From: Actinomycetota bacterium
GTDB taxonomy: Bacteria > Actinomycetota > UBA4738 > HRBIN12
Assembly (NCBI GenBank): GCA_050692695.1
Contig: JBOGVI010000149.1
Span: forward strand, 1-40,442
Direction of reading: 5' to 3'
Length of the DNA stretch: 40,442 bases
Part shown: one piece after another, positions 7,364 through 30,936 of the stretch
Layout of the letters: each line of letters starts with the position of its first letter
Position numbering within the stretch: the first letter of the stretch is position 1
Program-made: the position numbers and the translations under genes
The notes under the pieces: generated by a model
Seen by the model: the letters and a program-made list of their open reading frames with translations, nothing else
What the model was told of the DNA's origin: nothing
The model's database searches: none

Positions 7364-9385
7364 TTGTCGAGCATCGCCGAGGAGGTCGCACAGCTTCGCG
7401 GGACCAAGTCGGCGACCTTCAGGGACCTCCTGACCCGCCCCCCGTTCCCCCGGTTGCTGGCGGCGCAGACGGTCTCGTCGCTGGGCGACTGGGTCGGGTT
7501 CGTGGCCGTCGCGTCGCTCGTGGAGCGGCTGGGGGGAACCGTCGGCGCGTACGCGGTGGCCGGCGTGATGCTCGCCCGGATGCTTCCGTCGATCCTGTTC
7601 GGCCCGGTGGCCGGTGCCCTGGTCGACCGGTTCGATCGCAAGCGAATCATGATCACGGCCGACGTGACCCGGGGCGCGCTCTACGCCTCGATGCCGTTCC
7701 TGGGCAAGCTGTGGGCCATCTTCGCGGTGTCGTTCCTGATCGAGTCGCTCTCCCTGCTGTGGACGCCGGCCCGCGACGCCAGCCTGCCGAACCTCGTGCC
7801 CAGGCGACAGCTCGCCAACGCCAACTCGCTCGGACTTCTCTCGACCTACGGGACGCTCCCCCTGGGCGGGGCGATCTTCGCGTTCCTCGCGGGCACGTCG
7901 GGCCTGTTCCCGTACCTGAAGTTCCGACCCGAGTTCCTCGCGCTCTGGCTCGACGCCGGGACGTTCGGTTTCTCCGCCCTGATGATCAGCCGGATCCCTA
8001 TCCCCACCCCGCCCTCCAGGGCCGTGGGGAAGTTCGAGAGCTCCCATGTGTTGCGGGACATCGCCGAAGGGGTCCGGTTCCTCCGCCAGCATTCGCTCGC
8101 CTCGTCCATGACCGTGGGCATCGTCTCGGCGTTCAGCGCGGTCGGCGCCGTGCTCGCGCTGGGGCCGATCTTCGCCAGGACGACGCTCGCCTCGGGTGCG
8201 GCGGGCTGGGGACTCCTGGTCACGTCGTTCGGCATCGGCATGGGGATCGGGATGGCGTCCGTGAACAAGCTCGTCGAGTACGCCGAGCGCGACCGTCTGC
8301 TCGTGTGGTCGCTGGTCGCGGCGGCCGCGACCCTCTTGGTGCTTGCGGCGATGCCCACCATCGCGGGGGCGGCCGCGCTGACGGTGGTGCTGGGCTTTTT
8401 CTGTGGGGGGGCGTGGGTCTCGGGCTACGTCTTGCTCCAGGAGAACGTGGCCGACGAGTACCGCGGCCGCACGTTCGGGTCCCTCACCGTCCTGTCGCGG
8501 TTCGGCCTGTTCCTTTCGCTGGCGGGGTTCCCCGCCCTTGCCGGGCTGATCGGGTTGCACCATTTCGTGAGGGTGGGCGGGGTTGAGGTCGACCTGTCCG
8601 GTACCAGGGTCGCGCTGATGGTCGCCGGCCTGGGCGTCATCGTGGCCGCCGACGTGACCCGCAGGGGACTGAAGCGGTTCCGGGTGAGCCGGCCCAAGCC
8701 GCTCGCCCTCGTCCCCAAGCTGAAGCGGCCTCCCCGGCGGGGCATCTTCGTGGTGTTCGAGGGAGTCGAGGGCTCCGGCAAGGGCACGCAGATCCGCCTG
8801 GCCAAGGAGTGGCTGGAATCGGAGGGGACCGACGCCCTCGTGACGCGCGAGCCCGGCGGCACACAGGTGGGCGAGCGGCTGCGGGACCTCCTGCTCGGCC
8901 ACGACATCGGGCACATCGAGCCCCGGACCGAGGCCCTGCTGTTCGCGGCGAGCCGGGCCCAGCACGTGGCAAGCGTGATCCGGCCTGCGCTCGCCGAGGG
9001 CAAGGTGGTGATCTGCGACCGGTACATCGACTCCTCCGTCGCGTACCAGGGATGGGGCCGAGGGCTCGGCGAACAGGACGTCCTCACGCTCAACGTGTGG
9101 GCCACCCAGGGTCTGTTCCCGGACCTGGTGCTCCTCCTGCACGTGGAGCCGGAGGCTGGCCTGCTGCGCTCGTTGGAAGAGCCCGATCGGATCGAGATGG
9201 AGTCGGGGGACTTCCATGCCAAGGTGTCCAACGCCTACCTCAAGATCGCCGAGGAGCATCCGGAGCGGTTCGTGGTGATCGACTCGAGCGGCCCGCCACA
9301 AGAGGTGCACGAACGGGTGACGGAGGCCATGCGTCGCGTGCTGAAGGAGCGCGAGGAGGATGAGCGGGACGGTCGGGATGCGTGA
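7364..9385 (+). CDS. tmk: Bifunctional MFS transporter / thymidylate (dTMP) kinase fusion
   Basis: 673-aa ORF with a TTG start directly abutting the topA TAG; SD GGAGGGG at 7352-7358. The N-terminal ~450 aa are an MFS_3-like 12-TM protein (LAAQTVSSLGDW, GALVDRFDRKR). The C-terminal ~210 aa are Tmk (FVVFEGVEGSGKGTQ P-loop, TREPGGT, DRYIDSSVAYQG). Confidence 0.9.
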   Translation: MSSIAEEVAQLRGTKSATFRDLLTRPPFPRLLAAQTVSSLGDWVGFVAVASLVERLGGTVGAYAVAGVMLARMLPSILFGPVAGALVDRFDRKRIMITADVTRGALYASMPFLGKLWAIFAVSFLIESLSLLWTPARDASLPNLVPRRQLANANSLGLLSTYGTLPLGGAIFAFLAGTSGLFPYLKFRPEFLALWLDAGTFGFSALMISRIPIPTPPSRAVGKFESSHVLRDIAEGVRFLRQHSLASSMTVGIVSAFSAVGAVLALGPIFARTTLASGAAGWGLLVTSFGIGMGIGMASVNKLVEYAERDRLLVWSLVAAAATLLVLAAMPTIAGAAALTVVLGFFCGGAWVSGYVLLQENVADEYRGRTFGSLTVLSRFGLFLSLAGFPALAGLIGLHHFVRVGGVEVDLSGTRVALMVAGLGVIVAADVTRRGLKRFRVSRPKPLALVPKLKRPPRRGIFVVFEGVEGSGKGTQIRLAKEWLESEGTDALVTREPGGTQVGERLRDLLLGHDIGHIEPRTEALLFAASRAQHVASVIRPALAEGKVVICDRYIDSSVAYQGWGRGLGEQDVLTLNVWATQGLFPDLVLLLHVEPEAGLLRSLEEPDRIEMESGDFHAKVSNAYLKIAEEHPERFVVIDSSGPPQEVHERVTEAMRRVLKEREEDERDGRDA

Positions 9386-10496
9386 CTCAGCCGTCCTCGA
9401 CCGCGTGCCCGGCCAGGACCAGGCCATGGCCTTCCTCCGGCAGGCCGCGGCCCGGCCCCACCACGCCTACCTCCTGGCCGGGCCGGAGGGGTGCGGCAAG
9501 CAGCTCGCCGCTCGGGCGTTCGCCGCGGCCCTTCTGTGCGAGCGAGGTGGGTGCGGCGAGTGCCGCGACTGCCGGCTGGCTCTGGACGAACGCCACCCGA
9601 ACGAGTTCCTGGTCGAGCCGGAGGGGCGCGACATCCACGTAGACACCGTCCGCGAGGAGGTGTGGCACCCCGCCTACCGCACGGCGCCCGAGCCCGGGCG
9701 GAAGGTCTTCGTGATCCGGGAGGCCGACCGCCTGAACCCGGCAGCCGCCGACACGCTCCTCAAGGTCCTGGAGGAGCCCCCGGCCGACGCCGTCATCCTG
9801 TTGCTCTCGGCCCGCCCCCACGAACTCCCGGAGACGGTCCTGTCTCGGTGCCACGTGGTGACCTTCCGGCCGCTCGCCGAGGACTTCGTCGCGGAGACCC
9901 TGGCCGGCGAGGGGGTGGATCGCCCGCTGGCGATGCTCGCAGCCCGCCTGGCAGGGGGGAACCTGGGACGGGCCCGCCGCCTGGCCACCGGTGCCGACGG
10001 GCTCGCGTTCCGAGACGTGGGCATGGAGGCGCTTCGCCGCGCGGCCCCCGGTCCGCAGGGAGCGCTGGACGCCGCCGACCTCGTGCTGGAGGCGGCCGAG
10101 CGCTACAGGAAGGGGCTCAGGGATCAGCTCGACGTGGACCTGGCGCCCTTCCTGGACGAGCAGGGCAGACCAGAGGAGGTATACCGCGGCGCCATCCGTC
10201 GGCTGGAGGAACGGCACAAGCGGCGGGTCAAGCGGGCCGAGCGCGACTACGTGGACTGGGTGCTGCTCGCCGTCTCCGTCGCGCTCCGGGACCGCATCGT
10301 GGCGGCCGTCGGGGGAGGCGAGGATCTCGCCATCAACCTGGATCTTCGGGCCCAGGGGACGTCCGAGGTGGTCGTCGACGCACTGGGGCTTGGGGCGGTG
10401 GAGGAGGCCCGGGCGGCCCTGGCCGAAGAGCTGAACCTGAACCCCCGGCTGGTGCTGGAGCGGGCGTTCCTGCGGCTCGGCGGGGTGGCAGCCTAG
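9360..10496 (+). CDS. holB: DNA polymerase III delta-prime subunit
   Basis: 378-aa ORF. HAYLLAGPEGCGKQLAARAFAAALLCE... with a CGECRDCR zinc module, then KVFVIREADRLNPAAADTLLKVLEEPP. It overlaps the tmk 3' end. An alternative in-frame ATG lies at 9378. Confidence 0.9.
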   Translation: MSGTVGMRDSAVLDRVPGQDQAMAFLRQAAARPHHAYLLAGPEGCGKQLAARAFAAALLCERGGCGECRDCRLALDERHPNEFLVEPEGRDIHVDTVREEVWHPAYRTAPEPGRKVFVIREADRLNPAAADTLLKVLEEPPADAVILLLSARPHELPETVLSRCHVVTFRPLAEDFVAETLAGEGVDRPLAMLAARLAGGNLGRARRLATGADGLAFRDVGMEALRRAAPGPQGALDAADLVLEAAERYRKGLRDQLDVDLAPFLDEQGRPEEVYRGAIRRLEERHKRRVKRAERDYVDWVLLAVSVALRDRIVAAVGGGEDLAINLDLRAQGTSEVVVDALGLGAVEEARAALAEELNLNPRLVLERAFLRLGGVAA

Positions 10497-10584: not shown

Positions 10585-10956
10585 ATGACGGTCCGAGTGC
10601 TCATCGTGGACGACCAGGGGCCGTTCCGGCAGGCTGCCCGGATGGTCGTGGAGGCCACCGACGGGTTCGAGGTCGTCGGGGAATCCGAGACCGGGGAGGA
10701 CTCGATCGGGAAAGCTCGCGAGCTCCACCCCGACCTGGTGCTGATGGACGTGAACCTGCCCGGGATCAACGGGCTGGACGCCACCAGGAAGATCCTGGAG
10801 GACTCGGGCAACCGGGTCGTGGTCCTGCTCCTCTCCACGTACGAGGAAGAGGAGTACGCGCCTCGGGCCGCCGAGTGCGGCGCCGCCGCCTACATCCCGA
10901 AGGCGGTGTTCGGGTCCGACCGGCTCGAGGCGGCCTGGGCCGCCGCCACCGGCTAG
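10585..10956 (+). CDS. Single-domain response regulator (receiver only, NarL-like subfamily)
   Basis: 123-aa ORF with SD GAAGGAG 10 nt upstream. Complete receiver residues are present: VDD, LMDVNLPG (phospho-Asp), LLST, IPK. No output domain precedes the stop. Confidence 0.85.
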   Translation: MTVRVLIVDDQGPFRQAARMVVEATDGFEVVGESETGEDSIGKARELHPDLVLMDVNLPGINGLDATRKILEDSGNRVVVLLLSTYEEEEYAPRAAECGAAAYIPKAVFGSDRLEAAWAAATG

Positions 10957-11753
10957 GTGACCGTGAACGTCTCCATGTGGCCGCCGGCGAAGTCCGCGGC
11001 CGTGTACTCGACGCCCGGCTCAAACTCGATCGTGAGGAAGACCGAGGCTCCGGGTGGGATCGTCTGCATCCCCCCGCGGAAGGTGACGGGCGGCTCGCCC
11101 GGATAGCCGCTCTCGATCCACGTGTCGACGTCCTCGACGGTCTTCCCGGCCTCGAACACGACCAGGATCAGCTCGTGGGGCTCGGTCCCGTCGTTTCGGA
11201 ATTCGACCACTTGCTCGCCGGGGGAGATGGCCGGGACCTGGAGTGCGTCCTCGGTGGCAGCGATGATGGCGTCCGGCTGGGGGAGCACCGCGCCCGTGTC
11301 GCCCGAGATCGAGAACACCTCGTACATCCCGAGCACGGCGTGGGGCGTCCCTTCCGGGTCGGGGAAGAAGCACAGGAACACGTAGGTGCCCGGGTCGAGC
11401 GTTCGGGTGACGATGGTGGATTCGCCCGGTGAGAGGCTCGGCACTCCGGCCACGTCCTCGAACCACCGGGGCGGCTCCCGCCCCGACTCGATCACCGCCT
11501 TCACGTCCGCCTCCGTCTTGCCCTCGTCGATCCGGCCGAAGGCGAACTCGTGGGGCAGCCCGCCGGTGTTGGTGAGGCGCATCGAGACGACGCCCCCGGT
11601 GACCTGGGCGGGCACGTCGAACGAGTACTCCGTGGCCGTGACCTCGACGGGCCGAAGCGTGGGGGTCCCAGGCCGGCCCGCCTCATCCCCGTCTCCGGCA
11701 CAGCCAGTGACGACCAGTGCGGCCACAGCCATCAGGACGTGCCGTCGTCTCAT
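10953..11753 (-). CDS. Secreted lipoprotein with two tandem cupredoxin-like domains
   Basis: I chose the internal ATG at 11753 (SD AAGGAGG 5 nt upstream) rather than the ORF-track start at 11834. The signal peptide plus lipobox is MRRRHVLMAVAALVVTGC. Domain 1 has His (GLPHEF) and C-x9-H-x4-M (CFFPDPEGTPHAVLGM). Domain 2 has His (EPHEL) and GGHM but no Cys. Confidence 0.7.
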   Translation of the reverse strand: MRRRHVLMAVAALVVTGCAGDGDEAGRPGTPTLRPVEVTATEYSFDVPAQVTGGVVSMRLTNTGGLPHEFAFGRIDEGKTEADVKAVIESGREPPRWFEDVAGVPSLSPGESTIVTRTLDPGTYVFLCFFPDPEGTPHAVLGMYEVFSISGDTGAVLPQPDAIIAATEDALQVPAISPGEQVVEFRNDGTEPHELILVVFEAGKTVEDVDTWIESGYPGEPPVTFRGGMQTIPPGASVFLTIEFEPGVEYTAADFAGGHMETFTVT

Positions 11754-11799
11754 CGCTTCCTCCTTGGTCCTTGCCCGGTTCTCCCGTATCTGGCCCGGT

Positions 11800-13911
11800 T
11801 CATTCCGCGGCCGGGCGCGGCCGGGCCCCCTCACGCGCGAGAACGCGACCCCGGATCGTCGTGCCGTGCCCCGGCTCCGATCGGATCTCGACCGTCCCGC
11901 CGATCGCCTCGACGCGGTCCGCCATGCTCTGGAGCCCGGTGCCGCTCGTCTCGGCCTCCGGGTCGAACCCCACGCCGTCGTCGGTCACGTCGAACCGCAG
12001 CTGCCCATCCTCCGCCGCCAGCCGCACCGACACCCGTGATGCCCTCGCGTACTTGGCCACGTTCGTGAGCGCCTCGAGCACGCAGAAGTAGACCGTCGAC
12101 TCCACGTCCTGCGGGTACCGGCCGACGCCGTGGCCATCGATCTCGACCGGCACGTTCGCCTTCCGTGCCTGGCCCTCGAGCGCGGCGACGAGACCCTTGT
12201 CGGAGAGCAGGGGCGGATAGATGCCCCGGGCCAGATCCCGGAGGTTCTGCATGGCGTCGTTCGCTTCGGCCTTGAGCTCGGCGGCCAGCGCCGCGGCCCG
12301 GTCCGGGTCCTTCCGCGTCAGCTGTTCCAGCAGCCGGAGCTTCACGGAGAGCGCTACGAGCTGCTGCTGCGCACCGTCGTGGATGTCGCGCTCGATCCGG
12401 CGGCGCTCCTGGTCTTGCGCCGCCACGATCCGCTGGCGCGACGCGCGGAGCTCTTCGATCAGTCGTACGTTGCGAAGCACCAGGCCGGCCTGGGAGGCGA
12501 GGTCCCGGACCAGCGCCTCCTTGGATGGGTTCATCGGATCGTTCGCGGGCATCGTCACCGAGACGGCGCCGAGGAGCTCGCCCTGGTGGCGTACGGGGAA
12601 CGCCGACGTCTGCGGCCCCAGGTCGGGCAGTTCCTCCCCCTGCATCCGGAGGGGCTTCCCGGCCCTCCCGCCGTCGGGCCAGGCGGCGGCGGGACGCAGT
12701 TCGGGGCCCACCCGGAGCCACACGATGGCCTCACTCGCCCCGGACCCCGCGGCCACGATCTGCGCCATCCGGGGCAGGACGTCGTCGGTCGAGTACGTCT
12801 CGGCCACGCGCTCGGAGAACTCGGAGAGGACCTCGTAGGGGGAGGCGCGCTCCCCGTAGACGAGCCGGTCCGCCAGGCGGCGGGCGGCCCGGCGGACCGG
12901 GTTGAAGGCGAGGGCCACGATGACCGCCGCGGCCAGCGAGAACAGGTCCGCCGACGTCCCGGCGGTCCCCCGGACGGCGAGGGGCACGGCGATGACGACG
13001 CCGAGGTAGACCAGCGCGATGAACGTCGCGAGCACGCCGGCCACGACCGTCTTCTTGACCACGATGTCGAGGTCGTACAGGCGATACCGGAACATCGCGA
13101 CGCCCGCCGCGAGCGGGATGCCGAGTCCGACCGTCAGGAAGAACAGGTAGAAGGAGATCTCGTTCAGGGGAGAGGTCTCGCCGAGGCCGATCCCCGTGAC
13201 GAGGAGGGCGAGGAAGAAGAACACGGCGATCGCTGCCCCGTAGGCGACCCACCGGATCTGTTGCCGCTCCTCCCGCCGTGCCCGTCGGAACCGGACGAAG
13301 AGCGCGGCCGCCGAGGCGAGCGTGGCCCCGATCGTTCCGAACGCAGCAACCGTGAGCACCGGACCGAGGAAGCGCTGGAGGCCCTCGATCGCGAGGGGGT
13401 TCGGGATGCTGACGCTGCCCACATCGAGCATCCGGGTCCTCACCCCGTCGGCCACGAGCCCGAGCCCGCCGAACCCGAACAGCGCCCAGGCCACGGGTCG
13501 CCACCGAGGCGAGGGGAGCGTCCCCGAGGGGAAGAGCAGGAACAGCAGGGGGATCGGCACGACGGCGAAGAAGATGGAGGTATCGGACACGAGCGCGGCG
13601 GCCCGGCCGAACGGCAGCGACCTGAGGGACGTCTCGAACGTGTAGGTGACGTACTCGGAGGCGAATCCATTGAGCAGGAAGGCCATCCCCGCGAGCATGA
13701 AGAGCCACCCGACCGGGTTGCGCGGGAATCGGGACGCGATCACCGCTCCGACCGTCGCGTACCCGGTCAGGATCACGACGGCGATCGGGATGAAGGGGAC
13801 GTCCTCCGAGAAGCTGCCGTTGCGGACGGTCAGGACCATCGTGACCGCGAGCAGGGCCAGCGTCGCGCCCCACAGGATCCAGGGTGTCCGGGAGCGGACT
13901 CCTCGACTCAT
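11800..13911 (-). CDS. Membrane sensor histidine kinase (multi-TM sensor, GAF-like linker, HisKA_3, HATPase_c)
   Basis: 703-aa ORF. About 8-10 TM helices at the N-terminus. H-box ERRRIERDIHDGAQQQLVAL. N box EALTNVAKYA. G boxes DDGVGFD and GTGLQSMADRVEAIGG. Confidence 0.9.
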   Translation of the reverse strand: MSRGVRSRTPWILWGATLALLAVTMVLTVRNGSFSEDVPFIPIAVVILTGYATVGAVIASRFPRNPVGWLFMLAGMAFLLNGFASEYVTYTFETSLRSLPFGRAAALVSDTSIFFAVVPIPLLFLLFPSGTLPSPRWRPVAWALFGFGGLGLVADGVRTRMLDVGSVSIPNPLAIEGLQRFLGPVLTVAAFGTIGATLASAAALFVRFRRARREERQQIRWVAYGAAIAVFFFLALLVTGIGLGETSPLNEISFYLFFLTVGLGIPLAAGVAMFRYRLYDLDIVVKKTVVAGVLATFIALVYLGVVIAVPLAVRGTAGTSADLFSLAAAVIVALAFNPVRRAARRLADRLVYGERASPYEVLSEFSERVAETYSTDDVLPRMAQIVAAGSGASEAIVWLRVGPELRPAAAWPDGGRAGKPLRMQGEELPDLGPQTSAFPVRHQGELLGAVSVTMPANDPMNPSKEALVRDLASQAGLVLRNVRLIEELRASRQRIVAAQDQERRRIERDIHDGAQQQLVALSVKLRLLEQLTRKDPDRAAALAAELKAEANDAMQNLRDLARGIYPPLLSDKGLVAALEGQARKANVPVEIDGHGVGRYPQDVESTVYFCVLEALTNVAKYARASRVSVRLAAEDGQLRFDVTDDGVGFDPEAETSGTGLQSMADRVEAIGGTVEIRSEPGHGTTIRGRVLAREGARPRPAAE

Positions 13912-14492
13912 CGACCGTCCACCCCGACGGTCGCCGGCACGCGGCCGGTGACCGTCGTGCCTCGGTTCGGGGCGCTTCGGATCTGGAGGGTTCCACCGAT
14001 TGCGTCGAGCCGGTCGGCCATGCCCTGGAGGCCGGTGCCGTAGGCGAGGGCAGAAGGGTCGAACCCCACTCCGTCGTCGGAGACCTCGAAGCTCAGACCC
14101 TGGTCGCCGGCCGAGAGCCGGACGGTCGCTTGCGTCGCGTTCGCGTACTTCGCCACGTTCTGAAGGGCCTCGAGGGTACAGAAGTAGACCGCCGTCTCCA
14201 CCTCCTGTGGGAACCGGCCCACGCCATCGACGAGCATGTCGGTTGGTACAGGAGACTTGCGAGCCTGGCTCTCCAGGGCAGCCGCCAATTCTCTGTCTGC
14301 CAGCAGTGGCGGGTAGATGCCGCGGGCCAGGTCACGGAGGTTCTCCAGGGCCTCGTCGGTCTCGCCCTGGAGCCGGCCCAGCATCTCCTTGGCCTTCGCC
14401 GGATCGCGGTCGGCCATCTGCTCGGCCAGTCGGAGTCTCACCGCCAACGCCACGAGCTGCTGCTGAGCCCCGTCGTGAAGGTTCCGCCCCAT
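13908..14492 (-). CDS. Sensorless truncated histidine kinase paralogue (partial H-box + HATPase_c only); possibly a gene remnant
   Basis: Only the last 194 codons of the 312-aa ORF look like protein: MGRNLHDGAQQQLVALAVRLRL...EALQNVAKYA...DDGVGFD...GTGLQGMADRLDAIGG. This part is about two-thirds identical by eye to the C-terminus of the downstream kinase. The upstream in-frame part is Arg/Pro/Gly junk. Its stop overlaps the next start as ATGA (13908-13911). Confidence 0.6.
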   Translation of the reverse strand: MGRNLHDGAQQQLVALAVRLRLAEQMADRDPAKAKEMLGRLQGETDEALENLRDLARGIYPPLLADRELAAALESQARKSPVPTDMLVDGVGRFPQEVETAVYFCTLEALQNVAKYANATQATVRLSAGDQGLSFEVSDDGVGFDPSALAYGTGLQGMADRLDAIGGTLQIRSAPNRGTTVTGRVPATVGVDGR

Positions 14493-14686
14493 GCCCGGAT
14501 TCTCGCCCTCTGCCCCTCGGCGCGGAAGGGTGCCGGCCGAACGGCCGGCGGGAGCTCCACCACCACGCCGGGGGTGCAAGCACCACCGGCTCGTCGGGCG
14601 GCTCTCTCCTCGAACCGTGGTGGCCGCCGGATGGGAAGGGGCCGGCCCGCGGCCTAGCGTCGGGGTCTCAGCGAGAGGAGGTTCCG

Positions 14687-15097
14687 ATGATCCGAAGGAT
14701 CCTGGTGGGGACCGATACCTCTGCCTCCGCGGATCTCGCGGTCGAGGCTGCGGCCGACCTGGCCCAAACCCACCAGGCCGAGCTCCTCGTGCTCTACGTG
14801 CGATCCGACCCCCCGATGCGTGACGCGGCCGACCCTCGCAAGCCACCGGACCCGGATCGCTACCTGTCCCGGATGACCGAGCGGTTCCCGACTCTTCGGA
14901 TCCGGAGTTGGAGCGAGCCCGGCGACCCGGCCGAACGGATCTGCGACGTGGCCGCCGAGGAGCGTGTGGACACGATCGTGGTCGGGAACCGAGGCGTGCA
15001 CGGCCCGAGGTGGCGGGTCCGCGAGAGCGTGCCGACCATGGTCGTGCGCCACGCCCCGTGCTCGGTCTTCATCGTGGACACTCGGGTGGCGCAGTGA
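14687..15097 (+). CDS. Universal stress protein (UspA family)
   Basis: I used the ATG at 14687 (SD GAGAGGAGG at 14673-14681) inside the 365-aa track ORF. MIRRILVGTDTSASADLAVEAA...DTIVVGNRGVHG...VVRHAPCSVFIV is the typical USP fold signature. Confidence 0.85.
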   Translation: MIRRILVGTDTSASADLAVEAAADLAQTHQAELLVLYVRSDPPMRDAADPRKPPDPDRYLSRMTERFPTLRIRSWSEPGDPAERICDVAAEERVDTIVVGNRGVHGPRWRVRESVPTMVVRHAPCSVFIVDTRVAQ

Positions 15098-15120
15098 CCG
15101 TGTCCGGTCGGGCTACCCGG

Positions 15121-15798
15121 TCAGCCCGCGGCGGGGTGCTCCGTCCCGCGGAAGAACGCGAGCACGGCCATCACCCGGCGGTGGACGTCGGTCTCCTCGG
15201 TCAGACCGAGCTTGTGGAACAGGGAGTTGATGTGCTTTTCTACGGCGCGCTCCGTGAGGAACAAGGACTTGGCGATAGCGGCGTTGTTCTTCCCCTGCGC
15301 CATGTGCCCGAGGACCTCCCGCTCCCGCTCGGTGAGCTGCGCGAGCGGCGAGTGGGCCATCCGGTCCTTCCGTGCGACCAGGGCCTCGACCACCTTGGGG
15401 TCGAGCACGGAGCCGCCCTTCGCCACCTCGGTGATGGCCCGGACCAGCTCGTCGAGATCGGCCACCCGTTCCTTGAGCAGGTACCCGAGGCCCGCGGCAC
15501 CGTCTTTCAGGAGGTCGTAGGCGTAGTCCTCCTCGGCGTACTGGGAGAGCACGACCACGCCGATCTCGGGATGCCCGGCCCGGATCCTTCGGGCCGCGTC
15601 GATCCCCTCCGTAGTGTTCGTGGGCGGCATGCGGATGTCGGTGAGGACGGCCTCGGGCGCGTGCTGTTCCACCGCCGCCAGCAGCTCGTCCAGGCTCGCG
15701 ACGGTGGCCACGAGCTGGATCTGGTCCGACGTCGTGAGCAGGGCGGCCGTCCCCTCGCGGACGAGATAGTTATCCTCCGCGAAGACCACGCGCACCAT
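15121..15798 (-). CDS. NarL/LuxR-family response regulator (REC + GerE HTH)
   Basis: The real start is MVRVVFAEDNYLVREG at 15798, and the 616-aa track ORF is an artefactual extension. Receiver residues are present (ED, TDIRMPP, LS, LLK). HTH is LTEREREVLGHMAQGKNNAAIAKSLFLTERAVEKHINSLFHKLG. Confidence 0.9.
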   Translation of the reverse strand: MVRVVFAEDNYLVREGTAALLTTSDQIQLVATVASLDELLAAVEQHAPEAVLTDIRMPPTNTTEGIDAARRIRAGHPEIGVVVLSQYAEEDYAYDLLKDGAAGLGYLLKERVADLDELVRAITEVAKGGSVLDPKVVEALVARKDRMAHSPLAQLTEREREVLGHMAQGKNNAAIAKSLFLTERAVEKHINSLFHKLGLTEETDVHRRVMAVLAFFRGTEHPAAG

Positions 15799-15843
15799 GG
15801 GCGGATGGTACACGCGCCCGAGACGTAGTTGGAGGGATGAGGG
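15799..15843. promoter_or_regulatory. 45-bp divergent control region between the two paralogous response-regulator genes
   Basis: Only 45 bp separate the two start codons. It contains the SD GGAGGG for the + gene. Both promoters must overlap here or lie inside the partner's coding sequence. Confidence 0.4.
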
Positions 15844-17118
15844 ATGAGCATCCGGGTCGTCCTGGGCGAGGACAACGTGCTGGTCCGTGAGGGGGTCCGG
15901 GCCCTCCTCGACTCGCATCAGGACATCGAGGTGGTTGGCGTCGCCGCCGACGCGCCCGCCCTGCTTGTCGCGGCCGAGGAGCACCGTCCCGACGTCGTGG
16001 TCACCGACATCAAGATGCCCCCAAACTTCCAGCTCGAGGGGATCGACTGCGCGCACGACCTTCGCTCGCGGCACCCCGGGATCGGCGTTGTGGTCCTCTC
16101 CTCCCACGACGACGAGGCATACGCCATCGCGCTCCTGGGCAAGGGCCAGAGTGGCCTGGCCTACCTGCTCAAGGACCGGATCGCCCAGGGCGACGAGCTG
16201 GTTCGAGCCATCCGCGAGGTCGCCGCGGGCGGGTCGGTCGTGGATCCTTTGATCGCGGAGCGCCTGTCCGGCCGCCGAGAGACCGAGGAGGACCGAGAGG
16301 TCCTCGACCTCATGGCCAAGGGTCATGGCTATGCGGAGATGGCCGAGGCCCTCGGTACCACCCAGGAGGCGGTGGACCGCCGGGTCACCGACCTGTTCCG
16401 GAGGCTCGCCGCGTTGGCCGAGGGCGGGGGGAGCGCCGCCGTCGACGAGATGAAGCGACTGCACGCGGCCGTCGTGGAGAAGGAGTCCTCGGCCCGCACC
16501 CTCCGTTCCTTCGTGCCCCAGCAGTTCGCGGCGAAGCTGGCTGCCGGCGGGGCGGCCGCCGAGCAACAGGAGGCCGAGGCCACCGTCCTGTTCTCCGACA
16601 TCCGCGGCTTCTCCGCTCTCGCCGAGCAGCTGTCGGCTCGGGAGATCGCCGACATCCTGGCCCGCCATCTCTCGGCCATGGCGGAGATCGTCGTGGCGCA
16701 CGGCGGCATGCTCGACAAGTTCGCGGGCGACGCGGTGATGGCGGTGTTCGGTGTCCCGGACCCCGCGCCGGATCACGCCGAGCGGGCCCTCCGGTGCGCC
16801 ATCGCCATGCAGGCTCGGCAGGCGGAGCTCAACCGGGACGGGTGGACGGAGACGCTGAGCGAGCTGGGGATGGGGATCGGCGTGAACACCGGCACCGTTG
16901 TGGCCGGGACCGTTGGCGGCGGCGGCCGGCTCGAGTACACGGTCGTGGGGGACGCCGTGAACATCGCGCAACGGCTCCAGAGCGAGGCCGACGGCGGCGA
17001 GATCATCGCCTCGGCGTCCACGGTGGCGGCGGCCCCGAGCATCGCGGCCGAGCCGATCGGGCCGCGCCCGGTGAAGGGGCGGAAGGATCCGGTCGACGTT
17101 TTCCGCGTAGTGAAATGA
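15844..17118 (+). CDS. Response regulator fused to a LuxR-type HTH and a class III adenylate/guanylate cyclase (REC-GerE-CYC)
   Basis: 424-aa uninterrupted ORF. REC: GEDNVLVREG, TDIKMPP, VVLSS, YLLK. HTH: REVLDLMAKGHGYAEMAEALGTTQEAVDRRVTDLFRRL. Cyclase: ATVLFSDIRGFS, LDKFAGDAVMAVFG, GIGVNTGTVVAG, VVGDAVNIAQRL. Confidence 0.9.
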   Translation: MSIRVVLGEDNVLVREGVRALLDSHQDIEVVGVAADAPALLVAAEEHRPDVVVTDIKMPPNFQLEGIDCAHDLRSRHPGIGVVVLSSHDDEAYAIALLGKGQSGLAYLLKDRIAQGDELVRAIREVAAGGSVVDPLIAERLSGRRETEEDREVLDLMAKGHGYAEMAEALGTTQEAVDRRVTDLFRRLAALAEGGGSAAVDEMKRLHAAVVEKESSARTLRSFVPQQFAAKLAAGGAAAEQQEAEATVLFSDIRGFSALAEQLSAREIADILARHLSAMAEIVVAHGGMLDKFAGDAVMAVFGVPDPAPDHAERALRCAIAMQARQAELNRDGWTETLSELGMGIGVNTGTVVAGTVGGGGRLEYTVVGDAVNIAQRLQSEADGGEIIASASTVAAAPSIAAEPIGPRPVKGRKDPVDVFRVVK

Positions 17119-17309
17119 CCAGGCCGAAAAGCGTGTTCCGTCGCGTGGAGCGGTGGTCGGTGGGGTTGGCCATGGGCGTTCTGGCCTTCGTCCTGGAGCG
17201 AGCCGTGGTCCGCTCGATCCGAAAGGGCGAGACCAAACCGAAGCCTCCCCAGCCGACCGCGATGAAGGGCACCGGTTCCGAGATCTCGCCTGCCGGGCCG
17301 GGAGACTAG
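17115..17309 (+). CDS. Hypothetical 64-aa single-pass membrane protein, translationally coupled to the cyclase gene
   Basis: The ATG at 17115 overlaps the cyclase TGA as ATGA. Sequence is MTRPKSVFRRVERWSVGLAMGVLAFVLERAVV, with one hydrophobic helix and then a Lys/Pro-rich tail. No recognisable family. Confidence 0.4.
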   Translation: MTRPKSVFRRVERWSVGLAMGVLAFVLERAVVRSIRKGETKPKPPQPTAMKGTGSEISPAGPGD

Positions 17310-17316
17310 CCCGGGT

Positions 17317-19413
17317 TTAGTTGCGGCGGAGCAGGTCCACGATCAGGCCCACCGTGAGCAGCCCGGCGAGGGCGCCGAACCCGACCGGGATCCAGTCGGA
17401 GACGCGCTCCGCGGCCACGGTGAGGCCGGTGGCGAGCACCGCGGCTCCCGCGGTAAGTCCCAGGGCCAATCGCCGCCCGGCCCGCCGGATCGTGTTCTCC
17501 AGCGACGCCGCCCGGAAGTTCACCTCGAGCTTCTGCCCGGGCCTCGCCCCGATCAGCCGCTCCACGGCCTCCACGATCCGCAGGAACCGGACCTTGATCC
17601 GCTGCGACTGGTAGAAGAGAGCTTTCGGGTCCAGCTTCGACCCCATTCCCGAGAGCACCTGCCGCATCAGGAACTTCCCGGCCACGTCGAACGGGTCGAG
17701 GTCCGGGTCCAGCTCGGCGGTAGCAAGCTGCATCTGCGCGAGCGCCTTGCCGGTCAACGCGAGCGACGCCGGCAGCGGCACGTCGTGACGGATGGCGATC
17801 TCCGTCATCTCCTGGAGGATTGGGCCGAGCCGGATGTCGGACAGGGAGGCCGTGCGGTACTTCGCCATCATCTCGCCGATCTCCGAGCTGAACCTGTCCG
17901 CGTCGAGATCGCTCCGGTCGATCGCCCCGGCCAGCATCAGCGTGACGTCGGTGAGGAACCCCACGTCCTCCTGCCAGAAGGCCATCAACAGGAGCATCAA
18001 CTCCTCGCGCATGTCGGCGCCGACCTCGCCCACCATGCCGAAGTCCAGGAAGTAGATGCGGTCGTTCCACCACATGAGGTTCCCCGGATGCGGGTCGGCG
18101 TGGAAGAACCCGTGCACGAGGATCTGCTTGTAGTAGCTCTCGAGCAGCTGGCGAGCCGCGTCCTTGCGCTCCGGTCCCTCCGGCGCCTTCGAGATCGGTC
18201 CGCCTTGGATCTCCTGCATCACCAGCAGGCGCGACGTCGACAGGTCGTCGTGGACGCCCGGCACCGACAGGCGCGGGTAGTCCCGGAGGACGTGGCTCAT
18301 CCGCTCGATGTTCGAGGCCTCCTGGCGGAAGTCGAGCTCGCGGTGGAGCGACGAGGACAGGTGCTCGAACACCGCGCCCATGTCGATCACCTGCTTCAGG
18401 CCTGGTCGGACGGAGACCTTCTCCGCGAACAGTTCGAGGAGGGCGAGGTCCTGCTCGATCTCCTCCCGGGCGGTGGGGCGCTGGACCTTGGCGACCACGC
18501 GCTCGCCGCCCGTCAGCGTGGCCCGGTGGACCTGGGCGATCGTCCCAGCGGCCATGGGCCGAGGGTCGATGGATTCGAACACGTCCTCCCAAGGCACGCC
18601 GAGCTCTTGCTCCATCACGTGAACCACTTCCTCTTCGGTGAGCGGCGGCACGTTGTCCTGGAGCGTCGCGAGCTCCTCGATGAACTCCGGGGGAAGGAGG
18701 TCGGGACGGGTCGAGAGCACCTGGCCGAGCTTGGCGAACGTCGGACCCAGCTCCTCCAGGGCGGAGCGGAGGTGCTTGGCCTGCTTGCGACGGCCGGTAG
18801 TTATCTCCTCGTCCGCCTTGCCGAACAGGGCCTTCACCCCGTGCTTCGTCATCACGGCCGCGATGCGCGCGCCTCGCGCCGCGAGGCGCGGCTCCGTCTC
18901 GGGGACCTCGCCCTCGCGGATGACCCGCGTGGTCCGAACGACCTGCGCCGTCACGCCGTCGGGCGAGAAGGTGTTGACGATGATCACCGTGCAGGTTGCG
19001 TTGTGCGAGATCCGGTTCGGGACGTTGCCGAGCAGGAACTCTTTCCGTCCGGCCATGCCCGCGTTGCCGACGACGAGGACGTCCGCTCGCTCTTGCTCCG
19101 ACGCTCGGACGATGGCCATGGCCGGATCGTCGTCCACGAGCACCAGGGACCGGGCCCGGTCCCCGGCCAGCTCGAACGCGAGCTTCTGGAGCTCGTCGGA
19201 GGCGGCTCCGGCCCGGGTACCCTCGGCCGCCCCGTACTCGGTTACGGCGGGGCTGGTGGGGACGACCACCTGGACCAGGAACAGCTCGGCGGCGTATCGG
19301 TCGGCGAGCGCCGCGGCCCATCCCACCGCGCGATCGGCGGTCTCGGAGCGGTCGGTGGCCACCATGACCCGAGAGACGCCGGGCGACGTGCGAGATGTGT
19401 TCTGGGCTGGCAT
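17317..19413 (-). CDS. USP domain fused to an ABC1/UbiB (AarF-type) atypical protein kinase with a C-terminal membrane anchor
   Basis: 698-aa ORF. The N-terminal ~150 aa are USP (RVMVATDRSETADRAVGWAA...VLVVGNAGMAGRKEFLLGNV...CTVIIV). Next comes ABC1 (LGPTFAKLGQVLSTRPDLLPPEFIEEL, AAGTIAQVHRA, HADPHPGNL, LDFGMVG). Two TM helices lie at the C-terminus. Confidence 0.9.
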   Translation of the reverse strand: MPAQNTSRTSPGVSRVMVATDRSETADRAVGWAAALADRYAAELFLVQVVVPTSPAVTEYGAAEGTRAGAASDELQKLAFELAGDRARSLVLVDDDPAMAIVRASEQERADVLVVGNAGMAGRKEFLLGNVPNRISHNATCTVIIVNTFSPDGVTAQVVRTTRVIREGEVPETEPRLAARGARIAAVMTKHGVKALFGKADEEITTGRRKQAKHLRSALEELGPTFAKLGQVLSTRPDLLPPEFIEELATLQDNVPPLTEEEVVHVMEQELGVPWEDVFESIDPRPMAAGTIAQVHRATLTGGERVVAKVQRPTAREEIEQDLALLELFAEKVSVRPGLKQVIDMGAVFEHLSSSLHRELDFRQEASNIERMSHVLRDYPRLSVPGVHDDLSTSRLLVMQEIQGGPISKAPEGPERKDAARQLLESYYKQILVHGFFHADPHPGNLMWWNDRIYFLDFGMVGEVGADMREELMLLLMAFWQEDVGFLTDVTLMLAGAIDRSDLDADRFSSEIGEMMAKYRTASLSDIRLGPILQEMTEIAIRHDVPLPASLALTGKALAQMQLATAELDPDLDPFDVAGKFLMRQVLSGMGSKLDPKALFYQSQRIKVRFLRIVEAVERLIGARPGQKLEVNFRAASLENTIRRAGRRLALGLTAGAAVLATGLTVAAERVSDWIPVGFGALAGLLTVGLIVDLLRRN

Positions 19414-19470: not shown

Positions 19471-19547
19471 GCCGGAGTAGCTCAGCCTGGCAGAGCAACC
19501 GCCTCGTAAGTGGTAGGTCGAGGGTTCGAATCCCTCCTCCGGCTCCA
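19471..19547 (+). tRNA. tRNA-Thr (anticodon CGU), CCA encoded
   Basis: Hand-folded cloverleaf. Acceptor GCCGGAG/CTCCGGC. D arm GCTC-AGCCTGGCA-GAGC. Anticodon arm ACCGC-CTCGTAA-GTGGT (U33, CGT, A37). Variable loop AGGTC. T arm GAGGG-TTCGAAT-CCCTC. Discriminator T plus CCA. Total 77 nt. Confidence 0.9.
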
Positions 19548-27235: not shown

Positions 27236-27406
27236 TGTGGCCTCCTCTTGCTCTCTCGCCCCAGCCACTCGATCGATGGGTGGGAGAGGAGGCCCCCTGG
27301 CGCCCGCAGCTACACGGGCTAGGTCCGCCAATGAGCGTGAGCGGAACAGGTGCACCCAGGGTGGCATGGCTCGTTCGTCCGGTCAATCGGACGCGGCACG
27401 ATCCTG

Positions 27407-27433
27407 GGAACCCCGTTCACATCTCGGCCGGTC
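27407..27433 (+). promoter_or_regulatory. Candidate ECF-type promoter (GGAAC ... GTC) upstream of the sigma factor gene
   Basis: GGAAC at 27407-27411 and cgGTCc at 27429-27434, about 12-20 nt before the candidate GTG starts. This is the pattern expected for autoregulated ECF sigma genes, but the spacer is slightly long. Confidence 0.25.
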
Positions 27434-27445
27434 CTTCCTCCTGTA

Positions 27446-29535: not shown

Positions 29536-29661
29536 CAAGAAGGGGAATCAACGCGGACGGATGACCGGTTCGCCTTCGAGCGAGCTGCGGCGGCTTCAAG
29601 GGTGCCGGTCCTGCGCCCGCCCGCGCCGCTGACCGCTGCTTGAGGTGGATCCGCCCCAGCC

Positions 29662-30900: not shown

Positions 30901-30936
30901 CCAAGGAGTGTATGTCGCCCCGGCTACGATGGAGTC

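What the first reader, a model, noticed from the sequence alone, without database searches (positions are those of the whole stretch)
10585..19413. Compact two-component / cyclase / USP / ABC1-kinase signalling island between holB and tRNA-Thr
Nine genes on alternating strands, with stop-start or stop-stop overlaps and gaps of 0-46 bp (the largest is a 194-bp divergent gap). In order they are:
- a receiver-only protein
- a tandem-cupredoxin lipoprotein
- a membrane HisKA_3 kinase
- a sensorless kinase paralogue
- a USP
- a NarL regulator
- a REC-LuxR-cyclase fusion
- a 64-aa membrane peptide
- a USP-ABC1 kinase fusion

Both flanks are universally conserved housekeeping genes, so this block is accessory to the backbone.

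The content suggests one circuit:
- A redox or copper cue is sensed by the lipoprotein plus kinase.
- Phosphotransfer branches to three receivers.
- One receiver is a cyclase.
- The two USP domains are candidate cNMP readers. Both are of the nucleotide-binding type, with G-x2-G-x9-(G/E)-(S/N) motifs, and the mycobacterial USP Rv1636 is a known cAMP binder.
- One USP domain would gate an atypical kinase.

I am not aware of a described system with this composition.
Basis: partly seen in the sequence, partly recalled or inferred. Interest (0 to 1): 0.72.

Follow-up and report, generated by a model that had tools for sequence, protein, structure and literature searches.

The report
Multi-kinase relay driving a cAMP-making regulator
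Between two housekeeping genes, an uncultured soil actinobacterium carries a conserved signalling module in which membrane sensor kinases most likely feed three receiver proteins, one of them a gene regulator fused to a cAMP-making enzyme; this is a new variant of two-component signalling, not a new kind of system.

Summary
The nine genes and nearly all domain calls are real. Gene 4 is a truncated kinase remnant, and the cyclase's "LuxR" part shows only through homology to its neighbour.

The block is not a strain-level accessory island. With uniform GC and no mobility genes, it fills the holB–tRNA-Thr interval in 80 species-level genomes of one uncultured Actinomycetota lineage.

- **Fixed core:** USP, a NarL-type regulator and a REC-HTH-cyclase.
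- **Variable flanks:** 0–6 tandem, fast-diverging membrane HisKA_3 kinases.

In a distant clade (cyclase 44–48% identical, other genomic contexts) the cyclase again travels with this kinase type, a NarL regulator and a gene-1-like receiver. In some members that receiver is fused to the cyclase.

The supported unit is therefore kinase(s) plus three receivers, one an apparently active class IIIb adenylyl cyclase, plus a small membrane protein that ends the operon. The cupredoxin lipoprotein is species-specific. The USP and USP-UbiB genes are neighbours only within this lineage, and nothing tested here supports them reading cAMP.

Verdict: first reading partly supported; new variant of a known kind; moderate interest.

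The parts
10585..10956 (+). Gene 1: stand-alone NarL-type receiver (123 aa). By eye it has the acidic pair, D54, T/S and K. Belongs to the module.
   Evidence: Pfam Response_reg 80 bits. Follows holB in 25/28 lineage loci. 55% identical to the C-terminal REC fused to the cyclase in P0246. Fused or adjacent in 14/22 distant-clade loci. dN/dS 0.20.
10953..11753 (-). Gene 2: tandem-cupredoxin lipoprotein. Domain 1 has a type-1 Cu ligand set. Species-specific passenger transcribed downstream of the kinase.
   Evidence: Lipobox C18 and H68/C128/H138/M143 are invariant in 22 homologues. AF2 pLDDT 84. Foldseek hits to multicopper oxidases and Cu nitrite reductases, prob 1.0. Present only in L001 among 80 loci. 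Elsewhere it follows an abhydrolase gene.
11800..13911 (-). Gene 3: sensor histidine kinase with about 9 TM helices, GAF, HisKA_3 and HATPase_c (703 aa).
   Evidence: Pfam. Hydropathy. Member of a tandemly expanded family with 0-6 copies per locus, cores about 61% and sensors about 39% identical. dN/dS 0.21.
13908..14492 (-). Gene 4: N-terminally truncated kinase paralogue (DHp+CA only, His at residue 6). Probably a remnant; function uncertain.
   Evidence: 62% identical to the gene 3 core. No coding signal upstream of 14492. Sister genome L001 replaces 14170-14488 with 43 nt (net -276 nt, in frame), which removes the H-box. The retained C-terminus has dN/dS 0.13.
14570..14660 (+). Conserved upstream region of the USP gene: GTGSTGGC-type repeats (intact copy at 14615-14628) and a TAGCGT -10-like hexamer at 14655-14660. 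Candidate operator/promoter.
   Evidence: Alignment of 59 USP upstream regions. The repeat pair occurs mostly upstream of the USP gene, one copy per locus, in 17 lineage loci (L030 and a second site in L031 lie elsewhere). Sequence read.
14687..15097 (+). Gene 5: single-domain USP (136 aa from the ATG with a GAGGAGG SD). Nucleotide-binding type, G-x2-G-x9-E-S. Lineage-specific fixed neighbour of the core.
   Evidence: Pfam Usp 91 bits. Adjacent at fixed spacing in 57/72 loci and within 2.2 kb in 61/69. Absent from distant-clade loci. PDB hits are generic USPs; Rv1636 E=1e-6. dN/dS 0.15.
15121..15798 (-). Gene 6: NarL-family response regulator (REC+GerE), divergent from the cyclase gene. Likely leaderless: the minus-strand TACCAT (plus-strand coordinates 15805-15810) lies 6 nt upstream of the ATG.
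   Evidence: Pfam. Next to the cyclase in 73/75 loci. 55-63% identical homologues near the cyclase in the distant clade. Conserved hexamer. dN/dS 0.09.
15844..17118 (+). Gene 7: complete NarL-type regulator (REC 1-127, HTH about 148-191), a long helix with a cyclase-transducer-like motif (LRSFVPQQFAAKL, 220-232), and a class IIIb adenylyl cyclase domain (241-424).
   Evidence: Pfam. 49% identical to gene 6 over 196 aa. PDB: VraR, DevR and NarL for the N-terminus; Cya2 and CyaB for the C-terminus. D252, K292, D296, T366, N373 and R377 are invariant. AF2 model. dN/dS 0.07.
17115..17309 (+). Gene 8: conserved 64-aa single-TM protein, the last gene of the cyclase(-kinase) operon. Candidate small membrane modulator of the kinases.
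   Evidence: Conserved RR(V/I)ERWxVG...AFVLEK motif in 54 sequences. Starts no more than 36 bp after the preceding same-strand kinase or cyclase gene in 31/50 loci. dN/dS 0.12.
17317..19413 (-). Gene 9: USP-UbiB/ABC1 atypical kinase with two C-terminal TM helices. Anchored to tRNA-Thr. Its link to the module is not established.
   Evidence: Pfam ABC1 219 bits and Usp 89 bits. TIGR01982 scores 321, below its 488 cut-off. TM helices. Within 10 kb downstream in 43/53 loci. tRNA-Thr lies downstream in 15/15 loci checked (immediate adjacency seen where gene coordinates are known, window and L081/L082). In the distant clade only one USP-less ABC1 gene, in L102.
19471..19547 (+). tRNA-Thr(CGT): downstream boundary of the interval.
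   Evidence: ARAGORN, Rfam, conserved in related loci.

Best explanation
This is a branched two-component relay with a second-messenger output.

Components and proposed flow:
- One or more polytopic membrane HisKA_3 kinases act as sensors. Here there is one intact copy, gene 3; relatives carry up to six diversified tandem copies. The cue is unknown and probably sensed within or at the membrane.
- The kinases phosphorylate three NarL-type receivers: a stand-alone receiver (gene 1, a likely phosphate sink or connector), a classical NarL transcription factor (gene 6), and that factor's paralogue (gene 7).
- Gene 7 has kept its HTH and carries a class IIIb adenylyl cyclase behind a coiled-coil/transducer helix.
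- Phosphorylation would release and dimerise the HTH end of gene 7 and so align two cyclase domains. The same cue would then drive both transcription and cAMP synthesis.
- The 64-aa membrane protein (gene 8) closes the cyclase(-kinase) operon and may modulate the kinases.

Other genes:
- The USP (gene 5) is a fixed neighbour within the lineage, with its own conserved upstream element. It is most simply a regulated stress gene, as with USPs beside DosR-type systems.
- USP-UbiB (gene 9) and the cupredoxin lipoprotein (gene 2) are neighbours without demonstrated coupling.

Shown: domains, catalytic residues, paralogy, synteny, fusion. Inferred: who phosphorylates whom, the activation mechanism, and the roles of the USP and the small protein.
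For: - Domains and motifs.
- Gene 7 is a paralogue of gene 6 through the HTH.
- In 80 species-level genomes the NarL regulator is adjacent in 73/75, a kinase lies directly downstream of the cyclase on the same strand in 41/67, and there are 0-6 kinases per locus.
- An independent distant clade, in other genomic contexts, keeps cyclase + kinase (17/22), gene-1-like REC (14/22; fused in P0246, L086-L094) and NarL regulator.
- All nine genes are under purifying selection, dN/dS 0.07-0.32.
- The small protein is tightly coupled to the preceding gene.
Against: - No phosphotransfer, cyclase activity or expression data exist.
- All loci come from metagenome assemblies of uncultured organisms.
- Within the lineage, synteny could partly reflect shared ancestry.
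- In this window the only intact kinase is on the opposite strand, 1.9 kb from the core, and the slot right after the cyclase is empty.
- The NarL regulator is found in only about a third of distant-clade loci, many of which are short.
- Pfam does not recognise the HTH of gene 7 as GerE, so DNA binding by the fusion is uncertain.
Confidence: 0.6

Rival explanations
1. The cupredoxin lipoprotein plus kinase sense copper or redox, the cyclase makes cAMP, and the two USP domains read cAMP, one of them gating the UbiB/ABC1 kinase.
For: - The lipoprotein gene lies 46 bp downstream of the kinase gene on the same strand, and its type-1 Cu ligands are invariant.
- The USP is adjacent to the core in 57/72 lineage loci, and USP-ABC1 lies within 10 kb in 43/53.
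- Both USPs keep the G-x2-G-x9-(G/E)-(S/N) nucleotide motif (read from the sequence), and gene 5 keeps the Gly equivalents of Rv1636 G10/G113.
- An ABC1 kinase gene sits beside the NarL regulator in one distant locus, L102.
Against: - The lipoprotein is in 1 of 80 related loci; its family elsewhere follows an abhydrolase gene.
- The distant-clade loci have no USP, and an ABC1 gene appears in only 1 of them.
- USP-ABC1 stays next to tRNA-Thr while its distance to the cyclase ranges from 1.3 to 8 kb.
- PDB similarity of the USP is generic; Rv1636 is not the best hit.
- The USP of gene 9 has Ala at the G10-equivalent position.
Confidence: 0.12
2. Hot-spot accumulation. The holB-tRNA-Thr interval is a permissive, recombination-prone slot in which signalling genes pile up. 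Only conventional kinase-regulator pairs are functionally linked, and the cyclase, stand-alone receiver, USPs and UbiB act independently.
For: - Content between the anchors varies widely: 0-6 kinases, kinase remnants, and unrelated genes such as an M36 peptidase and SnoaL proteins.
- The interval is tRNA-adjacent.
- The same kinase family and other cyclases are scattered elsewhere in these genomes.
Against: - The USP-NarL-cyclase trio keeps fixed spacing in 56/72 loci despite variable flanks.
- Cyclase + kinase + gene-1-like REC (+ NarL) recur in a distant clade outside this interval, and the REC is physically fused to the cyclase in some.
- The divergent NarL and cyclase genes are paralogues sharing a 35-50 bp control region.
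Confidence: 0.15
3. A DosRST-like dormancy/redox system. USP + NarL-type regulator + GAF-HisKA_3 kinase mirror Rv3134c-DevR-DevS, so the cue is oxygen/NO/CO or redox sensed by the GAF domain, with cAMP as an added output.
For: - The kinase has GAF (24.8 bits) ahead of HisKA_3.
- DevR (3c3w) is among the PDB relatives of the gene 7 N-terminus.
- The USP gene is fixed beside the regulator and has a conserved upstream element.
- The Rv3134c-devR-devS operon layout is from my own knowledge, not tested here.
Against: - The kinase is polytopic with one weak GAF, not a soluble tandem-GAF haem protein.
- DevR is not the closest relative. NCBIfam gives only sub-threshold hits to MadR/MctR/NarL models.
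- The conserved upstream element does not resemble the DosR palindrome as I recall it.
- Haem ligands were not examined.
Confidence: 0.1

Closest known systems
NarL/HisKA_3-class two-component systems with several kinases converging on one regulator (DosS/DosT-DosR of Mycobacterium; KinA-E to Spo0F of Bacillus, from my own knowledge)
   Same: HisKA_3 kinases with a GAF domain, NarL-type receivers with a GerE HTH, a USP gene beside the regulator, and several kinases per regulator.
   Different: - The kinases are polytopic membrane proteins in tandem arrays of up to six fast-diverging copies.
- There are three receivers, including a cyclase fusion.
- There is no evidence of haem sensing.
Receiver-regulated class III adenylyl cyclases (receiver-cyclase fusions such as cyanobacterial CyaC and Dictyostelium ACR; catalytic domain closest to P. 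aeruginosa CyaB, 3r5g, and Synechocystis Cya2, 2w01)
   Same: - A phospho-receiver lies upstream of a homodimeric class III cyclase.
- Lys/Thr specificity pair and all catalytic residues as in class IIIb adenylyl cyclases.
- A helical transducer motif precedes the catalytic domain.
   Different: - The input is a complete NarL-type regulator, REC plus conserved HTH, paralogous to the neighbouring transcription factor.
- Only about four 50%-identity clusters with this full-length architecture appear among the 150 best-scoring of 1.84 billion representatives.
Cyclase-LuxR proteins of mycobacteria (Rv0386, Rv1358, Rv2488c; the 'CHD+LuxR' sub-family in PMC3466318)
   Same: A class III cyclase and a LuxR-type HTH in one polypeptide in Actinobacteria.
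   Different: - Those have the cyclase at the N-terminus, an AAA/TPR middle and a C-terminal HTH, with no receiver.
- Here the order is REC-HTH-cyclase, under two-component control.
Rv1636/MSMEG_3811 cAMP-binding USP, and the c-di-AMP-binding USP domain of KdpD (PMC11107214, PMC4686210)
   Same: A USP fold with a Gly-rich nucleotide pocket. These give precedents for USP domains reading cyclic nucleotides, and for a USP domain fused to a kinase.
   Different: - There is no specific sequence affinity to Rv1636 (E about 1e-6, behind generic USPs).
- The lineage lies outside the reported taxonomic range.
- No binding data exist.
UbiB/ABC1 (COQ8) atypical kinases
   Same: ABC1 domain at 219 bits; KxGQ, catalytic Lys, HxDxxxxN and DFG motifs seen by eye; C-terminal TM helices.
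   Different: An N-terminal USP domain. The protein scores below the UbiB equivalog cut-off (321 vs 488 bits). I found no paper describing a USP-UbiB fusion.

Membership tests
Two-component system, HisKA_3/NarL class | Kinase with a HisKA_3 H-box His and HATPase_c N/G boxes | tested here: met
   Gene 3: HisKA_3 58 bits, HATPase_c 50 bits. HDGAQQQ, EALTNVAKYA, DDGVGFD and GTGLQ boxes read in the sequence.
Two-component system, HisKA_3/NarL class | Receiver domains with the phospho-acceptor Asp and conserved T/S and K | tested here: met
   Response_reg at 59-80 bits in genes 1, 6 and 7. D55, S86 and K110 of gene 7 are invariant in 15 homologues. Equivalent residues were read in genes 1 and 6.
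Two-component system, HisKA_3/NarL class | Phosphotransfer from the kinase to the receivers | not testable with these tools
   Needs biochemistry. Only co-localisation and the fusion support it.
LuxR/GerE HTH (claimed for the cyclase fusion) | Significant match to the GerE model | tested here: not met
   No GerE hit at E<0.01. Sigma70_r4_2 scores 22 bits, below its 25.7 cut-off.
LuxR/GerE HTH (claimed for the cyclase fusion) | Homology through the HTH to bona fide NarL-family regulators | tested here: met
   49% identity to gene 6 over residues 3-188, E=8e-57. Alignments to VraR 1-191, DevR 2-208 and NarL 8-197. Helices at 148-158, 163-170 and 174-191 in the AF2 model.
Class III (IIIb) adenylyl cyclase | Two metal Asp, substrate Lys and Thr/Asp, transition-state Asn and Arg | tested here: met
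   D252, D296, K292, T366, N373 and R377 are invariant. They align to CyaB (Lys/Thr) and differ from the Cya2 guanylyl cyclase (Glu/Gly). Foldseek to 3r5g: rmsd 1.5, TM 0.9.
Class III (IIIb) adenylyl cyclase | cAMP synthesis, regulated by receiver phosphorylation | not testable with these tools
   Enzyme assay required.
Rv1636-type cAMP-binding USP | USP fold with Gly at the positions contacting ribose and cyclic phosphate (G10, G113/114) | tested here: inconclusive
   Gene 5 has both Gly (VGTD, VVGNRG). The USP of gene 9 has Ala at the first position (VATD). These Gly are also common in ATP-binding USPs.
Rv1636-type cAMP-binding USP | Closest relatives are Rv1636/MSMEG_3811; reported range is Mycobacterium, Corynebacterium and Nocardia | tested here: not met
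   The best PDB hits are 3s3t and 2pfs. Rv1636 scores E=1.4e-6 over 55 residues. The range statement is in PMC11107214.
Rv1636-type cAMP-binding USP | Preferential cAMP binding over ATP | not testable with these tools
   ITC, BLI or DRaCALA required.
UbiB/ABC1 atypical kinase | ABC1 domain above the Pfam cut-off | tested here: met
   PF03109 at 219 bits against a 22.9 cut-off.
UbiB/ABC1 atypical kinase | Equivalog of UbiB (TIGR01982 / NF003404) | tested here: not met
   321 bits vs a 488 cut-off, and 247 vs 667. It is a family member, not a UbiB orthologue.
Cupredoxin (type-1 copper) protein | Cupredoxin fold and His-Cys-His-Met ligand set | tested here: met
   Ligands are invariant in domain 1. 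Two beta-sandwich domains, pLDDT 84. Foldseek multicopper oxidase hits at prob 1.0. Pfam alone is sub-threshold, 21 vs 27 bits. Domain 2 lacks the Cys, the second His and the Met.
Genomic (accessory/mobile) island | Atypical composition, mobility genes, patchy presence among relatives | tested here: not met
   GC is 0.69-0.73, as in the flanks. All ORFs are accounted for, with no integrase or transposase. The block is present in 80 species-level genomes. Only tRNA adjacency fits.
DosRST (DevRS) system | Soluble kinase with tandem GAF domains, the first binding haem | tested here: not met
   About 9 TM helices and a single weak GAF. Haem ligands were not examined.

The most novel reading that the evidence does not exclude
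In a widespread uncultured soil Actinomycetota lineage, a fast-evolving battery of up to six membrane kinases converges on a twin pair of regulators. One of the pair has become a DNA-binding adenylyl cyclase. The cAMP it makes is read locally by USP folds: the fixed neighbour USP, and the USP domain that gates a UbiB-type lipid/quinone kinase. That would extend cAMP-sensing USPs beyond mycobacteria and give UbiB kinases their first known second-messenger input.
Probability: 0.12. Interest if true: 0.72.

Novelty: new variant of a known kind. Interest (0 to 1): 0.45.

Why it matters
- **Dual output from one cue.** The module converts a two-component signal into transcription and cAMP at once, using a regulator that kept its HTH when it gained a cyclase. 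This architecture is absent from the 2012 census of actinobacterial LuxR proteins and is rare among 1.84 billion representative proteins.
- **Kinase turnover in progress.** The flanking kinase arrays hold 0-6 copies, with cores about 61% and sensors about 39% identical, plus remnants at several stages of decay. They show how sensor kinases are born, diversify and die around a fixed set of receivers.
- **Ecological reach.** The lineage is abundant in soil metagenomes, so the module is probably a major input to cAMP signalling in organisms that have never been cultured.
- **Two testable side issues.** Does the HTH of the fusion still bind DNA? Does any USP here read cAMP?

Tried and rejected
- **Pfam GerE in the cyclase:** no hit. 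I replaced this test with pairwise and PDB homology.
- **Intergenic NarL-cyclase alignment for a palindromic operator:** it showed only a TACCAT -10-like hexamer 6 nt from the NarL ATG, and no shared operator.
- **Consensus promoter/terminator scan:** uninformative in this 70% GC DNA.
- **Rfam:** only the tRNA.
- **NCBIfam:** only sub-threshold hits, so no named orthologues.
- **Literature searches** for receiver-cyclase fusions, USP-UbiB fusions and HisKA_3/cyclase in Actinobacteria found no description of this composite. The library lacks most subscription journals, so absence is weak evidence.
- **The kinase GAF domain as a cNMP reader:** considered, but I saw no NKFDE-type motif in the sequence (by eye) and did not pursue it.
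- **Lineage naming:** not achieved beyond 'uncultured Actinomycetota/Actinomycetes'.
- **Contexts of P0244 and P0248:** these came from the representative library and could not be looked up. P0246 was used instead for the single metagenome scan.
- **First H-box regular expression:** it failed and was corrected.

Full report
**Source and gene calls**

The window is a 40,442-bp contig of an NCBI metagenome-assembled 'Actinomycetota bacterium': the cyclase protein matches P0001 at 100%. GC is about 70% and flat across the finding.

GC3 frame analysis and ORF listing with Pfam give nine genes between holB (9360-10496) and tRNA-Thr(CGT) (19471-19547):

| Gene | Product | Coordinates |
|---|---|---|
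| 1 | Receiver only | 10585-10956 (+) |
| 2 | Lipoprotein | 10953-11753 (-) |
| 3 | 703-aa kinase: about 9 TM helices, GAF, HisKA_3, HATPase_c | 11800-13911 (-) |
| 4 | 194-aa HisKA_3-HATPase ORF | 13908-14492 (-) |
| 5 | USP | 14687-15097 (+) |
| 6 | REC-GerE regulator | 15121-15798 (-) |
| 7 | REC-...-Guanylate_cyc protein | 15844-17118 (+) |
| 8 | 64-aa single-TM protein | 17115-17309 (+) |
| 9 | USP-ABC1 protein with two C-terminal TM helices | 17317-19413 (-) |

Between this window and a sister genome (L001), all nine genes have dN/dS of 0.07-0.32. So all nine are real genes, or were until recently.

**Corrections to individual calls**

- *The 'LuxR' part of the cyclase.* Pfam does not see it. 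It is nevertheless real. Residues 3-188 are 49% identical to the neighbouring NarL regulator through the whole HTH. The N-terminal 190-204 residues align end to end with VraR, DevR and NarL. Gene 7 is therefore a complete NarL-type regulator, paralogous to gene 6, with a cyclase added.
- *The cyclase domain.* It is closest to P. aeruginosa CyaB and Synechocystis Cya2. It has Lys292/Thr366 where the Cya2 guanylyl cyclase has Glu/Gly. It also keeps D252, D296, N373 and R377, all invariant in 15 homologues. This is the signature of an active class IIIb adenylyl cyclase.
- *The linker.* A long helix (196-234) carries LRSFVPQQFAAKL. This fits the cyclase-transducer pattern as I recall it, and it links the HTH to the catalytic domain.
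- *The lipoprotein.* It really is a tandem cupredoxin. Lipobox Cys18 and a His68/Cys128/His138/Met143 set are invariant. The model is confident and matches multicopper oxidases and Cu nitrite reductases.
- *Gene 4.* It is a truncation, not a designed sensorless kinase. It starts 5 residues before the phospho-His, and upstream of it there is no coding signal. In L001 the stretch 14170-14488 is replaced by 43 nt, which leaves only the ATPase half. The replacement is in frame and the retained part has dN/dS 0.13, so a residual function cannot be excluded.

**Conservation within the lineage**

A scan of one genome per GTDB species found 80 loci with the cyclase at 70-99% identity. All are uncultured Actinomycetota MAGs, mostly from soil. 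tblastn with the window's proteins gave these counts:

| Arrangement | Loci |
|---|---|
| NarL regulator divergent and adjacent to the cyclase | 73/75 |
| USP at fixed spacing | 57/72 |
| Whole trio (USP, NarL, cyclase) | 56/72 |
| Stand-alone receiver directly after holB | 25/28 |
| USP-ABC1 within 10 kb downstream | 43/53 |
| tRNA-Thr(CGT) downstream of the cyclase/USP-ABC1 region | 15/15 checked |

Between these anchors the content varies. There are 0-6 kinases of the gene 3 type, in head-to-tail arrays about 2.1 kb apart. They lie on the minus strand upstream of the USP, and on the plus strand directly after the cyclase in 41/67 loci.

Paralogues within a locus are about 61% identical in the kinase core but only about 39% in the membrane sensor. 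Short kinase-derived ORFs occur in many loci. Some of these may be frameshifts in long-read assemblies.

The 64-aa protein is conserved. It starts no more than 36 bp after the preceding same-strand kinase or cyclase gene in 31/50 loci. It is therefore the last gene of the cyclase(-kinase) operon rather than a partner of USP-ABC1.

The cupredoxin lipoprotein occurs only in the sister genome. Elsewhere its small family (170 proteins) follows a hydrolase gene.

With flat GC, no mobility genes and presence in 80 species, the block is a lineage-wide fixture of the topA-tmk-holB ... tilS-hpt-ftsH-fol housekeeping region. It is not a strain-level accessory island.

**Test beyond shared ancestry**

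Among the 150 best-scoring of 1.84 billion 50%-identity representatives, only about four clusters align to the whole REC-HTH-cyclase protein. One of them, P0246 (43% identical), carries an extra C-terminal receiver. That receiver is 55% identical to gene 1 but only 29% identical to the protein's own N-terminal receiver. This is a Rosetta-stone fusion linking gene 1 to gene 7.

A metagenome scan with P0246 gave 80 further loci, with the cyclase 44-48% identical to the window's. None of them lies near holB. In the 22 loci with at least 3.3 kb downstream:

- A polytopic HisKA_3 kinase is present in 17, mostly downstream of the cyclase on the same strand; in L133 and L137 it lies upstream on the opposite strand.
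- A gene-1-like receiver is fused or adjacent in 14.
- A NarL regulator 55-63% identical to gene 6 is present in 7, plus 4 more upstream.

These calls were confirmed by Pfam in L087, L102 and L136. No USP and no 64-aa protein were found. A USP-less ABC1 kinase gene appears once, beside the NarL regulator in L102.

The unit that keeps together across clades and genomic contexts is therefore kinase + REC-HTH-cyclase + stand-alone receiver + NarL regulator.

**Mechanism**

The best-supported reading is a branched relay. Membrane kinases phosphorylate three NarL-type receivers. One is a phosphate sink or connector, one is a transcription factor, and one is that factor's paralogue, whose phosphorylation-driven dimerisation would align two cyclase domains through the helix and transducer segment.

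The following steps are inferred, not shown:
- the kinase-receiver pairings;
- the activation mechanism;
- DNA binding by the fusion;
- the roles of the small protein and of the USP.

The USP has its own conserved upstream element: GTGSTGGC-type repeats about two helical turns apart, then a TANNNT hexamer and a strong SD. This fits a regulated target gene. The NarL gene has a conserved TACCAT 6 nt upstream of its ATG, which suggests a leaderless transcript.

**The USP-cAMP idea**

Both USP domains are of the nucleotide-binding type. Gene 5 keeps the Gly residues that contact cAMP in MSMEG_3811 and Rv1636. Those residues are not specific to cAMP binders, however.

The closest solved relatives are generic USPs. 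[quoted passage not shown] The distant clade lacks USP neighbours altogether.

The idea is not excluded, and the KdpD USP domain binding c-di-AMP is a precedent. Nothing here supports it beyond lineage-level adjacency.

**Comparison and verdict**

The parts belong to known families. These are HisKA_3/NarL two-component systems, class IIIb cyclases, USPs, UbiB/ABC1 kinases (below the UbiB equivalog cut-off) and cupredoxins.

The closest systems are multi-kinase NarL-class relays such as DosST-DosR and receiver-regulated cyclases. The mycobacterial cyclase-LuxR proteins have the opposite domain order and no receiver.

I found no description of the REC-HTH-cyclase architecture or of this module, though the library is incomplete.

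I rate it a new variant of a known kind and of moderate interest.

Noticed in passing
window 7364-9385 (+): Thymidylate kinase is fused to an N-terminal MFS transporter domain (673 aa). The same fusion is called in related genomes (L081, L082).
   Followed up: partly
window 15796-15810: On the minus strand a conserved TACCAT hexamer lies 6 nt upstream of the NarL regulator's ATG in nearly all 70+ loci. There is no SD, which suggests a leaderless mRNA. The cyclase gene on the other strand has a normal GGAGGG SD.
   Followed up: partly
window 14570-14660; e.g. L010 8787-8816: A conserved direct-repeat element (GTGSTGGC ... GTGGTGGC, about 22 bp apart) occurs, one copy per locus in most, upstream of the USP gene (L030 and a second site in L031 lie elsewhere). 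In the window the upstream repeat is degenerate and displaced. Two distant-clade loci (L105, L119) have the pair about 0.8 kb downstream of the cyclase.
   Followed up: partly
L001 3418-3460 vs window 14170-14488: The sister genome replaces 319 nt of gene 4 with 43 unrelated nt. The net change of -276 nt keeps the reading frame while deleting the H-box. The shared ATG and upstream sequence show the N-terminal truncation is older than this event.
   Followed up: yes
L082 2183-2506; L102 11341-11913; L014, L019, L025, L026, L031, L038, L071 (one search list): Short kinase-derived ORFs (ATPase-only or DHp-only) recur beside the module in many genomes, including right after the cyclase in distant-clade loci. 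They may be decay products, assembly frameshifts, or functional mini-proteins.
   Followed up: no
L085 1-14819: Elsewhere in a related genome, 15 kb holds three further 700-aa HisKA_3 kinases, a cyclase-AAA-TPR protein, a hydrolase-cyclase fusion and the cupredoxin lipoprotein. This kinase family and class III cyclases are expanded genome-wide in the lineage.
   Followed up: no
L082 11299-12102, and about 17 other loci (gap of about 700-860 bp): An uncharacterised gene of about 267 aa with no Pfam hit sits between the cyclase or kinase and the 64-aa protein in a subset of genomes.
   Followed up: no
window 37814-38200 (-): A second stand-alone receiver gene (Response_reg 103 bits) lies between lysS and the last ORF of the window, far from any kinase gene.
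   Followed up: no
window 27350-30900: An ECF-type sigma factor (27350-27931) is followed by about 3 kb for which my GC3 filter called no confident gene. It contains long ORFs on both strands (27640-29535 +, 29662-31869 -).
   Followed up: no
L102 13091-14764 (-): In one distant-clade locus an ABC1 kinase gene without a detectable USP domain lies directly next to the NarL regulator and the gene-1-like receiver. This is the only hint outside the lineage of an ABC1 link.
   Followed up: partly
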